Source: Nostoc sp. DedSLP01 | GTDB lineage: Bacteria > Cyanobacteriota > Cyanobacteriia > Cyanobacteriales > Nostocaceae | Direction of reading: 5' to 3' | Assembly (NCBI GenBank): GCA_034530875.2 | Contig: JAVRCJ020000003.1 | Span: forward strand, 330,514-394,513 | DNA length: 64,000 nucleotides | Shown: positions 36,096 to 38,138 of the stretch, piece after piece | Layout: every line of letters begins with the position of its first letter | Position numbering within the stretch: the first letter of the stretch is position 1 | Made by a program: the position numbers and the translations under genes | The notes under the pieces: model-generated | Database searches by the model: none | Seen by the model: the letters and a program-made list of their open reading frames with translations, nothing else | What the model was told of the DNA's origin: nothing

Positions 36096-36811
36096 AATGA
36101 AACTAGTGATTCTAAAAAGTTGATCTGGTGAATGAAAAGTGGGTAAGAATGATACATCGCAATCCTAAATAAAATACAAACAAATCTGTTTCCTGTTTTT
36201 TGTTCCCTCCCACCACAAGTAGTTTGCAAATCAAATAGGATTGGTATACGGCATTTCTCAATTCTTTGGAATCAGCTTTCGTAAGGTAAAACACGACTCA
36301 GGAGAATTAGATGTTTAGATTTTGGAATCCTGGCTCTTTGAATTTTTGAAACACTAAGCTGCCACTGTAAGTTTTCTCTAATTTCTGGGTATTTTCTGTA
36401 TTTATTCATCTGAATTTTTAAATTTTCAACATTAATTTTTGATTATTTACATTGATAAGGTTATACAAATATAATAATTTTTTATTAAAAGAGCCTTTCT
36501 GCTTCTAGACAAATAAATAACAAGCACTTCACTACACAAAATTCTGACAAATTGAGGAAAACAAAGCTTATAATCTAAGCATTTTAAATTTGGAGAGAAG
36601 TTTGAAACTCGTTTCAGGTAAAGCGCACCGATTTCTACTCCAGACGCACAAACGACGACTTGCCGTAGGCATTAAAACAGAGCGTAATGAGTGAATTTTG
36701 CGTAATCCTTTACACAAAGCAAGCTACGCATAGCATTTCCTAGAGAAATGCTATAGTTTTGATTCCCCCAATTGTACTGAGTTTATCGCTTTTTTAGTTT
36801 TCTTGGGGGTC

Positions 36812-36840
36812 TTGACAGCACTAGCTCTTCTTGTTAATGT
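36812..36840 (+). promoter_or_regulatory. Sigma70-type promoter of the DAHP synthase leader
   Basis: TTGACA (36812), 17-bp spacer, extended TGn-TAATGT (36835). Confidence 0.7.
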
Positions 36841-36897
36841 TACTATATGTATGTTTATCTAGTTTAAGTTAAATTTTTCAGCAACAGAGCTTCGCAA

Positions 36898-36954
36898 ATG
36901 TTAAACACAAACTCCTACTTTTATTTTTGGTACAGGGCGGTTCACCGGGAGTGA
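36898..36954 (+). CDS. Attenuator leader peptide 1, MLNTNSYFYFWYRAVHRE
   Basis: Six consecutive aromatic codons (YFYFWY); the 3' end overlaps the antiterminator arm. Confidence 0.8.
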   Translation: MLNTNSYFYFWYRAVHRE

Positions 36955-37018
36955 ATAAAGTTTCCATACGGAAACTGCCCGGTGAACCGCAGAGCGAACT
37001 CTGCGGTTTTGTTTTTTT
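36937..37018 (+). terminator. Attenuator 1: antiterminator and intrinsic terminator
   Basis: GCGGTTCACCGGG (36937-49) pairs with CCCGGTGAACCGC (36978-90), excluding the terminator AACCGCAGAG-CGAA-CTCTGCGGTT (36985-37008) plus its T-tract. Confidence 0.85.
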
Positions 37019-37033
37019 AAGGAGAATTTCATT

Positions 37034-37099
37034 GTGACGACTTATTTCGCTAGTTGGTTTTACGGCTTTTACTTTTGGCCCAGAGTCAGTTCCGGGTAA
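37034..37099 (+). CDS. Attenuator leader peptide 2, MTTYFASWFYGFYFWPRVSSG (GTG start)
   Basis: AAGGAG RBS at 37019; 9 of 21 codons are aromatic (4 Phe, 3 Tyr, 2 Trp). Confidence 0.82.
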   Translation: MTTYFASWFYGFYFWPRVSSG

Positions 37100-37160
37100 A
37101 TTGCGTTATGCCGATAAACCACAACGCGCCCGGAACTTCTCAAAGGTTCCGGGTTTTTTT
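37088..37160 (+). terminator. Attenuator 2: antiterminator and intrinsic terminator
   Basis: AGTTCCGGG (37088-96) pairs with CCCGGAACT (37129-37), excluding the terminator CCCGGAAC...GTTCCGGG (37129-53) plus T7. Confidence 0.85.
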
Positions 37161-37265
37161 ATTAGTCATTGGTCATTGGTCATTAGTCATTAGTGTTCCC
37201 CTGCCTCCTCTGCTCAATGCCCAATCCCCAATCCCCAATACTTAATTTTTAAGGAGAATTAAACC

Positions 37266-38138
37266 ATGATTAACGCTAAACTTGCTGCACAATCCCATCC
37301 CAACCATCAGACAATCGTTAAAGTTTCAGAAAAAGTTGCTTTCGGCGGTGAAGAACTGGTAATTATCGGCGGCCCCTGTACTGTTGAAAGCTGGGAACAA
37401 ATGGAGACAGTGGCGCAGAAACTATCTACGACATCGGTACAAGCTTTGCGTGGCGGTGTGTACAAACCTCGCACATCTCCCTACGCGTTCCAGGGTATGG
37501 GTGAGTCAGGATTGGAAATTTTGGCGAAAGTGCGATCGCTTTACAATATGCCAGTCGTCACCGAGGTGATGTCAATTTCACAAATTGAAGCAGTAGCCAC
37601 CCATGCTGATATGCTTCAAGTTGGTAGCCGCAATATGCAAAACTTCGATTTGCTCAAAGCTTTAGGACAAGCCGGTAAACCGATACTGCTAAAACGCGGT
37701 TTAGCAGCGACTATTGAAGAATTCGTGATGGCAGCAGAATATATTCTCAGTCACGGCAATCCTGATGTGGTGTTGTGCGAAAGGGGTATTCGTAGCTTCG
37801 ATGATTACACGCGCAACGTCCTAGATTTAGGCGCAGTAGCAGCACTCAAACAAATAACTCACCTGCCTGTGATTGTAGATCCCTCCCATGCCGTAGGTAA
37901 ACGGGAATTAGTAGCACCTGTAGCTAGAGCTGCGATCGCTTGCGGTGCAGATGGGTTAATAATTGAGTGTCACCCACAACCAGAAAAATCTGTTTCTGAT
38001 GCCCGTCAAGCACTTTCTTTAGAAGATATGGTGGATTTAGTTGATAGTCTAAAGCTGATTGCAACAGCCGTCGGGCGCAGTATATTACAAACAAAAGGGG
38101 CAGGTTATAAACCTACCCCTTTTGTTTATGCTGCTTGA
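37266..38138 (+). CDS. aroF: 3-deoxy-7-phosphoheptulonate (DAHP) synthase, type I-beta, without N-terminal regulatory domain
   Basis: GPCTVES, KPRTSPYAFQG, GSRNMQNF, LLKRG, CERGIR and DPSH motifs; only 290 aa. Confidence 0.93.
   Translation: MINAKLAAQSHPNHQTIVKVSEKVAFGGEELVIIGGPCTVESWEQMETVAQKLSTTSVQALRGGVYKPRTSPYAFQGMGESGLEILAKVRSLYNMPVVTEVMSISQIEAVATHADMLQVGSRNMQNFDLLKALGQAGKPILLKRGLAATIEEFVMAAEYILSHGNPDVVLCERGIRSFDDYTRNVLDLGAVAALKQITHLPVIVDPSHAVGKRELVAPVARAAIACGADGLIIECHPQPEKSVSDARQALSLEDMVDLVDSLKLIATAVGRSILQTKGAGYKPTPFVYAA

What the first reader, a model, noticed from the sequence alone, without database searches (positions are those of the whole stretch)
36812..37265. Tandem double ribosome-mediated attenuator sensing all three aromatic amino acids upstream of a cyanobacterial DAHP synthase
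Seen in sequence: a near-consensus promoter followed by two complete attenuator modules in series. Module 1 has leader MLNTNSYFYFWYRAVHRE (36898-36954), a perfect 13-bp antiterminator (36937-49/36978-90) and a mutually exclusive terminator (36985-37018). Module 2 has an AAGGAG RBS right after terminator 1, leader MTTYFASWFYGFYFWPRVSSG (37034-37099), an antiterminator (37088-96/37129-37) and a terminator with T7 (37129-37160). In both, the 5' antiterminator arm sits in the last leader codons, so a ribosome reaching the stop codon favours termination while stalling on Phe/Tyr/Trp codons favours read-through. Established: this is trpL/pheL-type logic, and DAHP synthase is the entry step to all three aromatic amino acids. 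Inference: serial attenuators would multiply dynamic range and integrate three aminoacyl-tRNA pools. I do not know of leader-peptide attenuation, let alone tandem, being characterised for this gene in cyanobacteria. Neither leader is in the ORF track.
Basis: partly seen in the sequence, partly recalled or inferred. Interest (0 to 1): 0.92.

Follow-up and report, generated by a model that had tools for sequence, protein, structure and literature searches.

The report
Tandem aromatic leader-peptide attenuators before aroF
Two tiny reading frames packed with Phe, Tyr and Trp codons, each wired to a switchable transcription stop signal, sit in series ahead of a feedback-domain-less copy of the first enzyme of aromatic amino-acid synthesis; this looks like a textbook ribosome-sensing control, doubled, in a group of bacteria where I found no report of it.

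Summary
Both leaders, both antiterminators and both terminators are at the stated coordinates; they are the only such modules among 103,616 short ORFs of this genome. Of 160 distinct loci picked by the enzyme, 152 carry both RNA signatures; 4 have one module. All four helices show compensatory changes, core codon changes stay aromatic (59/62, 95/114), and the Trp-to-stop distance is fixed. In folding models the antiterminator holds until the ribosome passes the last Trp codon. The enzyme lacks the regulatory domain that its two leaderless paralogs carry. Corrections: the -10 box is 3/6, both leaders sense all three amino acids rather than splitting them, leader 1 has no Shine-Dalgarno, and module 2 needs kinetic trapping. 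There are no transcript or translation data. Ten literature searches found no cyanobacterial report; precedents are Corynebacterium aroR, Acholeplasma uORFC-13-1 and Salmonella mgtM/mgtP. This scan already noted the same element on other genomes. Verdict: new variant of a known kind.

The parts
36812..36840 (+). Promoter: -35 TTGACA (36812-17), 17-nt spacer, TG extension (36832-33), -10 TAATGT (36835-40)
   Evidence: Sequence; same layout in 46 of 48 diverse loci vs 0 of 138 control blocks; none of this type inside the leader in 0 of 140. Start site not measured.
36898..36954 (+). Leader ORF 1 (18 aa); aromatic run Y-F-Y-F-W-Y at 36916-36933; no Shine-Dalgarno
   Evidence: Trp in 48/48, Trp-to-stop 8 codons in 44/48, SD-like motif in 0/48
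36937..36990 (+). Antiterminator 1: 36937-49 pairs with 36978-90, enclosing an inner hairpin at 36960-75
   Evidence: -32.7 kcal/mol; 87.8% of cells paired, 31 cells with change on both sides, 0/500 shuffles
36940..36956 (+). Candidate local hairpin over the leader-1 stop codon (possible pause or anti-antiterminator); unproven
   Evidence: 94% paired but only 1 both-sided change, not above shuffles; -4.9 kcal/mol
36984..37018 (+). Intrinsic terminator 1 (11-bp stem 36984-37009, then U-tract); overlaps antiterminator 1 by 7 nt
   Evidence: -17.2; 97.1% paired, 13 both-sided cells, 0/500
37019..37024 (+). Shine-Dalgarno AAGGAG of leader 2
   Evidence: SD-like motif in 34 of 65 relatives
37034..37099 (+). 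Leader ORF 2 (21 aa, GTG start); aromatic block W-F-Y-G-F-Y-F-W at 37055-37078
   Evidence: Trp-to-stop 7 codons in 62/65; ATG in 56, GTG in 9 of 65
37088..37137 (+). Antiterminator 2: 37088-97 pairs with 37128-37
   Evidence: -20.8; 92.9% paired, 12 both-sided cells, 0/500
37128..37160 (+). Intrinsic terminator 2 (11-bp stem 37128-54, T7)
   Evidence: -17.0; 94.0% paired, 31 both-sided cells, 0/500
37161..37239 (+). Two 7-bp tandem-repeat arrays (4.9 and 3.6 copies) in the variable spacer; not part of the switch
   Evidence: leader-2 stop to aroF start varies from 76 to 660 nt
37251..37256 (+). Shine-Dalgarno AAGGAG of aroF, 97 nt past terminator 2 and not sequestered by it
   Evidence: SD-like in 68 of 77
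37266..38138 (+). aroF: 290-aa DAHP synthase (TIGR01361 family) without the N-terminal ferredoxin-like regulatory domain
   Evidence: separate clade 98/98

Best explanation
Two ribosome-mediated transcription attenuators in series control a DAHP synthase isoenzyme that has no allosteric domain. In each module the last leader codons are the 5' arm of an antiterminator whose partner is the 5' arm of an intrinsic terminator. With charged tRNA-Phe, -Tyr and -Trp plentiful, the ribosome passes the aromatic run, covers the arm, and the terminator forms. If any of the three is short, the ribosome waits at or before the last Trp codon, the antiterminator folds first, and RNA polymerase reads on. Polymerase must pass both gates, so read-through probabilities multiply: low basal level and a steep response. 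The cell keeps regulatory-domain isoenzymes for routine and secondary-metabolite flux and switches on this one when aromatic amino acids run short. SHOWN: anatomy, conservation, covariation, aromatic-codon selection, fixed spacing, missing domain, leaderless paralogs. MODELLED: the switch point at the Trp codon. INFERRED: leader translation, termination, the response to starvation, multiplicative action, feedback insensitivity of the enzyme.
For: Both RNA signatures in 152 of 160 loci chosen by the enzyme, not by the leader (155 on inspection). Compensatory changes in all four helices, 0/500 shuffles reaching the both-sided cell counts, and slid controls at most 63% paired. Core codons that differ from the modal codon stay aromatic in 59/62 and 95/114 cases, while flanking codons vary freely. 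Trp-to-stop fixed at 8 codons (44/48) and 7 codons (62/65). With a 13-nt footprint the switch base is held up to the Trp codon in 48/48 and 65/65 loci and released at Trp+1 (1/48) and Trp+4 (4/65); at equilibrium terminator 1 goes from 14/48 at Trp to 47/48 at Trp+1. One promoter upstream, none of that type inside. PF18152 sits only on the two paralogs. No Rho and no T-box found in the genome, so intrinsic termination is the available route. Stop-to-stem distance is 12 nt or less in only 3 of 72 terminators, unlike the runaway signature described in PMC7858274.
Against: No RNA 3' ends, ribosome footprints or reporter data. Leader 1 has no SD-like motif (0/48). At equilibrium terminator 2 dominates with the ribosome on Trp in 43/65 loci, window included (P=0.93), so module 2 depends on kinetic trapping that I did not simulate. 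The switch point moves with the assumed footprint: at 15 nt, P(terminator 1) is already 0.87 with Trp11 in the A site. Two of the five covariation measures (pairs changed, pair types) were mostly not above shuffles, and kin are not independent. The aligned sets were picked by a signature pattern, which inflates invariance. A few relatives carry premature leader stops (L018, L045, L147, L163), an insertion (L135/L175) or a single module (L038, L168, L169, L170), so the intact tandem is dispensable in some lineages.
Confidence: 0.78

Rival explanations
1. Only one module is a working sensor. The other is a fixed damper or is rarely translated: module 1 for lack of an SD, or module 2 because its antiterminator is displaced before it matters.
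For: SD-like motif in 0/48 for leader 1; terminator 2 favoured at equilibrium; 4 of 160 loci manage with one module of either type.
Against: Both modules keep start, frame, aromatic run, spacing and compensated stems across many families; either type occurs alone, which suggests each is self-sufficient.
Confidence: 0.1
2. The leaders are arrest peptides (TnaC-like, recalled) that stall the ribosome at or near the stop codon when a free aromatic amino acid binds in the exit tunnel. That holds the antiterminator arm covered and gives the same polarity.
For: Conserved C-terminal residues (Val-His in leader 1, Ser-Gly in leader 2) and a conserved first Trp 14 codons before the leader-2 stop (47/65).
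Against: The conserved C-terminal codons show almost no synonymous variation (GTT 46/46, GGG 61/62), which points to RNA and not peptide constraint. His-to-Arg changes come with compensation in the stem. L147 and L163 end leader 1 three codons after Trp yet keep the stems.
Confidence: 0.06
3. A general translation-speed or initiation sensor: default-ON architecture and U-rich wobble-read codons let any slowdown (nitrogen starvation, darkness, antibiotics) induce the gene, with aromatic specificity secondary.
For: Antiterminator predicted without a ribosome in 48/48 and 47/65; leader Phe codons are 85% TTT against 32% in the aroF genes and 75% genome-wide.
Against: Changes stay among Phe/Tyr/Trp codons and not among other U-rich codons; the target is the entry enzyme for exactly these amino acids.
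Confidence: 0.04
4. A protein- or small-RNA-controlled terminator pair, or a source of leader sRNAs; the ORFs are by-products of a U-rich binding site.
For: Strong nucleotide conservation of the U-rich run.
Against: Synonymous TAT/TAC variation, conserved start and stop codons in frame, and length changes only by whole codons.
Confidence: 0.02

Closest known systems
Corynebacterium glutamicum aroR-aroF leader-peptide attenuator (Neshat et al. 2014; seen only as a passage in review PMC11802643; the original was not held)
   Same: Aromatic-codon leader ahead of a DAHP synthase operon; stalling raises transcription.
   Different: Single leader with Phe-Tyr-Phe and no Trp mentioned; responds to Phe and not Tyr; that AroF is itself inhibited by Tyr and Phe. 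Here two leaders each carry F, Y and W, and the enzyme has no regulatory domain.
Acholeplasma uORFC-13-1 motif (PMC8632094, passage)
   Same: Predicted uORF plus intrinsic terminator upstream of aroF.
   Different: Single module, at least one Phe codon, other phylum, prediction only; no sequence relation tested.
E. coli trpL and pheL attenuators (PMC11802643 and PMC3641672 passages; four-segment layout recalled)
   Same: Control codons in a short leader, mutually exclusive antiterminator and intrinsic terminator, charged-tRNA sensing.
   Different: One module and one amino acid each. They use a 1:2 protector so that no translation gives termination (recalled); here candidate protectors lack covariation and the predicted default is read-through.
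Salmonella mgtCBR tandem attenuators mgtM and mgtP (PMC3641672, abstract and Discussion section 11)
   Same: Two leader ORFs, each with alternative stems, in one leader.
   Different: Two different signals (ATP, proline), additive, and no intrinsic terminators; here the same three amino acids twice with two intrinsic terminators.
Bacillus clausii metE tandem riboswitches (as summarised in PMC3641672 section 11)
   Same: Two intrinsic terminators in series in one leader.
   Different: Ligands are sensed by the RNA itself, without ribosomes.
DAHP synthases of the TIGR01361 family without N-terminal domain (PDB 1vs1, 1zco; that these are archaeal, unregulated type I-beta enzymes is recalled)
   Same: Catalytic barrel only; best PDB matches at E 1e-85 to 1e-82, aligned from residue 4 to 13 onward.
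   Different: Here a separate cyanobacterial clade placed behind attenuators; inhibition not assayed.

Membership tests
Ribosome-mediated (leader-peptide) transcription attenuator | Short leader ORF rich in codons for the end products of the downstream pathway | tested here: met
Ribosome-mediated (leader-peptide) transcription attenuator | Intrinsic terminator between leader and gene | tested here: met
Ribosome-mediated (leader-peptide) transcription attenuator | Antiterminator mutually exclusive with the terminator, supported by covariation | tested here: met
   overlap of 7 and 10 nt in the window
Ribosome-mediated (leader-peptide) transcription attenuator | Ribosome position on control codons versus the stop codon selects the structure | tested here: inconclusive
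   Met in the snapshot model for both modules and at equilibrium for module 1; not met at equilibrium for module 2. Model only, and dependent on the assumed footprint.
Ribosome-mediated (leader-peptide) transcription attenuator | Leader is translated and termination responds to charged-tRNA level in vivo | not testable with these tools
   Only assembled contigs were available
Classical four-segment trpL type | Protector (1:2) hairpin that gives termination when the leader is not translated | tested here: inconclusive
   Candidate stems about 94% paired but 1 and 0 both-sided changes; antiterminator still predicted without a ribosome in 48/48 and 47/65
T-box or other Rfam cis-regulatory family | Match to an Rfam covariance model | tested here: not met
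   No match at any gathering score and none over 36812-37265 at E up to 10; no T-box found in the genome
Arrest peptide (TnaC type) | Peptide-level conservation of the C-terminal arrest motif | tested here: not met
   Tail codons are fixed at nucleotide level or change with stem compensation; arrest itself not testable here
DAHP synthase, TIGR01361 / PRK08673 | Score above the curated cut-offs | tested here: met
   365 vs 268 and 406 vs 335 bits; KDO8P synthase models below cut-off
Allosterically regulated DAHP synthase with ferredoxin-like domain | N-terminal PF18152 domain | tested here: not met
   Absent here, present on the two paralogs; in-frame stop within 65 codons upstream in 156 of 160 orthologs

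The most novel reading that the evidence does not exclude
Both modules work, so this is amino-acid-sensing leader-peptide attenuation in cyanobacteria and a tandem of two intrinsic-terminator attenuators reading the same three tRNA pools as a two-stage amplifier. It would be kept across many families to gate an isoenzyme that has traded allosteric feedback for transcriptional control. It would also be a natural in-vivo reporter of transcription-translation coupling in bacteria without Rho, and the related single leader in L188 would place its origin before the split from the sister class.
Probability: 0.62. Interest if true: 0.76.

Novelty: new variant of a known kind. Interest (0 to 1): 0.63.

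Why it matters
It extends ribosome-mediated attenuation to cyanobacteria; a 2010 survey knew such leaders only from Proteobacteria, Actinobacteria and its own Firmicutes case (PMC2965389, passage). It offers a compact test of whether transcription and translation are coupled in these Rho-lacking organisms, and of what a duplicated attenuator gains, with natural single-module and broken variants as controls. It explains how an enzyme without a regulatory domain can be kept safely, and it points to a probably feedback-free DAHP synthase and a Phe/Tyr/Trp biosensor part for cyanobacterial engineering.

Tried and rejected
RNA evidence: one search found 4 RNA runs (1 study, share 0.05, contigs only). 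Laid at 80% likeness they show a relative's contigs covering leader and gene at flat depth, extending well upstream of the promoter and broken at the 7-bp repeats; this says nothing on ends or levels. Rfam: nothing. Other attenuated genes in this genome: nhmmer with both module profiles gave no second hit below E 0.08. Leader before other genes: a module-1 pattern matched 64 of 401 genomes (reversed control matched in 11). Of 10 hits away from a known aroF start that I cut out, 8 were chance matches without a leader, 1 was module 1 displaced by an insertion and 1 was module 1 fused to an aroF fragment. Duplication of one module: the shared F-Y-F-W run, a similar stem core and the same RBS context suggest it, but local alignment of the parts after the aromatic codons scored 17.3 against 15.1 +/- 3.1 shuffled, and only 16% of pairs exceeded the 95th percentile; the module-2 profile hits module 1 at E 9. 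Left as an unproven inference. Protector hairpins: no covariation. Downstream operon partner: no conserved next gene among 77 loci. Literature: ten searches gave no cyanobacterial attenuator. A heterocystous sRNA survey (PMC4734099; term search of the main text and 6 text supplements) did not contain the motifs; the two locus tags I used there were recalled. A small-protein review had no mention (PMC11848123). Term searches in PMC9529685 and PMC13323073 were empty; PMC13283749 mentions coupling only in passing. Subscription papers, large supplementary tables of TSS, Term-seq or Ribo-seq studies, and bioRxiv supplements were not seen and could hold this element; comparative attenuation surveys that I recall (Vitreschak, Merino, Lyubetsky groups) were not read.

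Full report
OBSERVATION. Leader 1 (36898-36954) and leader 2 (37034-37099) are 18 and 21 codons. The antiterminator arms are perfect complements (13 and 9 bp). Both terminators have 11-bp stems of about -17 kcal/mol followed by U-tracts, and each shares its 5' arm with the antiterminator (7 and 10 nt). The promoter is real but not near-consensus: TTGACA, 17 nt, TG-extended TAATGT. The same layout precedes leader 1 in 46 of 48 diverse relatives, 0 of 138 control blocks, and is absent inside the leader in 0 of 140. In this genome only these 2 of 103,616 short ORFs combine an aromatic cluster, a strong terminator and a strong antiterminator. Rfam has no matching family.

THE GENE. The ORF at 37266-38138 is a DAHP synthase (TIGR01361, PRK08673 above cut-off) that starts about 68 profile positions in. 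It lacks the ferredoxin-like domain PF18152, which the genome's two other DAHP synthases carry. One of those ends a trp/tyrosinase cluster (resemblance to the scytonemin cluster is recalled). Neither has an aromatic leader. The short form is a separate clade (98/98; 22 short, 2 paralog and 18 distant rows). It was found in 37 of 37 genomes of the genus and 8 of 24 other families sampled, and in 52 of 301 genomes drawn from the phylum at E 1e-100. Named carriers include Nostoc, Scytonema, Fischerella, Calothrix, Microcoleus and Coleofasciculus. No downstream partner gene is conserved. No Rho and no T-box were found in this 99.8% complete genome.

CONSERVATION. I examined 171 loci chosen by the enzyme and dropped 3 with under 450 nt upstream and 8 duplicates, leaving 160. 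Both RNA signatures occur in 152, and both strictly typed intact leader ORFs in 142. By eye, 155 are adjacent tandems, 1 is split by an IS605-type insertion and 4 have one module: type 1 in L168 and L170, type 2 in L038 and L169. Premature leader stops occur in L018, L045, L147 and L163. For statistics I used subsets under 88% identity (48 for module 1, 65 for module 2). These were picked with a signature pattern, so their invariant columns are partly by construction and about a dozen divergent module-2 copies were left out. All 48 leader-1 and 64 of 65 leader-2 peptides contain Phe, Tyr and Trp. Core positions are 89-100% aromatic while neighbours vary; the last Trp lies 8 codons (44/48) or 7 codons (62/65) before the stop. 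Core codons that differ from the modal codon remain aromatic in 59 of 62 and 95 of 114 cases.

STRUCTURE. Cells paired and cells changed on both sides: antiterminator 1, 87.8% and 31; terminator 1, 97.1% and 13; antiterminator 2, 92.9% and 12; terminator 2, 94.0% and 31. No shuffle of 500 reached any of these values, and slid controls fell to 12-63% paired. The counts of changed pairs and of pair types were mostly within shuffle range, and relatives are not independent. One telling case: an A-to-G change in the shared segment is compensated in the terminator (7 sequences) and tolerated as U-G in the antiterminator. Two small local hairpins that could act as pause or protector stems are about 94% paired but show no compensation.

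MECHANISM. I modelled the ribosome as covering 13 nt from the P site (12-15 nt per PMC3641672, section 11). With the transcript cut before the terminator's 3' arm appears, the diagnostic base is held upstream whenever the A site is at or before the last Trp (48/48, 65/65) and is released at Trp+1 in module 1 (1/48) and by Trp+4 in module 2 (4/65). Later module-1 values in that call reflect other local pairing, because the measure counts any upstream partner. At full equilibrium module 1 switches at the same point (terminator in 14/48 at Trp, 47/48 at Trp+1), but module 2 favours the terminator even at Trp (43/65). Module 2 therefore works only if the antiterminator, which forms first, persists until polymerase clears the U-tract. 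Without a ribosome the antiterminator is predicted in 48/48 and 47/65: a default-ON design. Leader 1 has no SD-like motif (0/48; leader 2 34/65; aroF 68/77). A crude count shows terminators within 12 nt of a stop codon in only 3 of 72 cases, not the runaway-transcription signature described in PMC7858274 (passages). My reading: aromatic shortage stalls the ribosome before the arm, both gates open, and a feedback-free isoenzyme is made. Since both leaders read all three amino acids, the doubling most likely multiplies range and steepness. Translation, termination and response are inferred; the only RNA runs available were contigs and uninformative.

BEYOND THE CLADE. Among 18 DAHP synthase loci from 9 of 10 genomes searched outside the window's class, 1 (L188) has a single 21-codon leader with a Y-F-Y-G-F-Y-F run and no Trp, a terminator and, by eye, an antiterminator and the same promoter type. 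It precedes a chorismate mutase and a long-form DAHP synthase. That these genomes are non-photosynthetic is my inference from the kinship label. This partly confirms an earlier scan note, but in 1 of 18 loci only.

KNOWN VERSUS NEW. It works like trpL/pheL and meets the sequence-level tests for a leader-peptide attenuator; the four-segment protector is not demonstrated. Closest cases: C. glutamicum aroR-aroF (review passage, PMC11802643; original not held), Acholeplasma uORFC-13-1 (passage, PMC8632094) and the Salmonella mgtM/mgtP tandem (abstract and one section, PMC3641672). None combines two intrinsic terminators, the same three amino acids twice, and an enzyme without a regulatory domain. 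Ten searches of the open library found no cyanobacterial report; closed journals and large supplements were not seen. The scan has noted this element on other genomes (8 notes listed); those are unchecked and not counted as support, though they gave me the aroR paper, the sister-class lead and the protector idea.

VERDICT. Real, conserved, very probably functional; a new variant of a known kind. Interest 0.63.

Noticed in passing
window 37266-38138 and 77 orthologous loci: The enzyme is poor in what it makes: mean 0.13 Trp over the aligned part of 77 orthologs (1 in the window's protein) against 4-5 in the paralogs; its Phe codons are 68% TTC while the genome is 75% TTT and the leaders 85% TTT. 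Fits a protein that must be made under aromatic starvation.
   Followed up: partly
L175:1104-2363 (G199): An IS605/TnpB-type gene (PF01385, PF07282) has inserted at the start of leader 2, moving module 1 and the promoter about 2 kb from aroF.
   Followed up: partly
L172 (G105:C49 near 74100): Module 1 is fused to an internal aroF fragment: a deletion has removed terminator 1's 3' half, module 2 and the start of the gene.
   Followed up: no
L018, L045, L147, L163, L051, L032: Natural leader mutants: stop at codon 3 of leader 2 (L018), last Trp to stop (L045), leader 1 ending three codons after Trp (L147, L163) or one codon early (L051), no canonical leader-2 start (L032). Useful as natural tests.
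   Followed up: partly
L188, about 630-560 nt upstream of the DAHP synthase start at 1288 (G125): Single Tyr/Phe leader plus terminator before a chorismate mutase-DAHP synthase pair in a genome outside the window's class; the sister locus L186 has the same gene pair with no such leader seen.
   Followed up: partly
window 37161-37239: Two 7-bp tandem arrays between terminator 2 and the aroF RBS; the spacer expands and shrinks widely in relatives. Likeness to the short tandem repeats of heterocystous cyanobacteria is recalled.
   Followed up: no
L200 (G000:C18:146573-155975): Cluster trpE(G)-trpC-trpA-tyrosinase-trpB-trpD-DAHP synthase with regulatory domain, with no aromatic leader detected.
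   Followed up: partly
window 36730-36754: A 10-bp inverted repeat upstream of the promoter, possibly insulating it; not checked in relatives.
   Followed up: no
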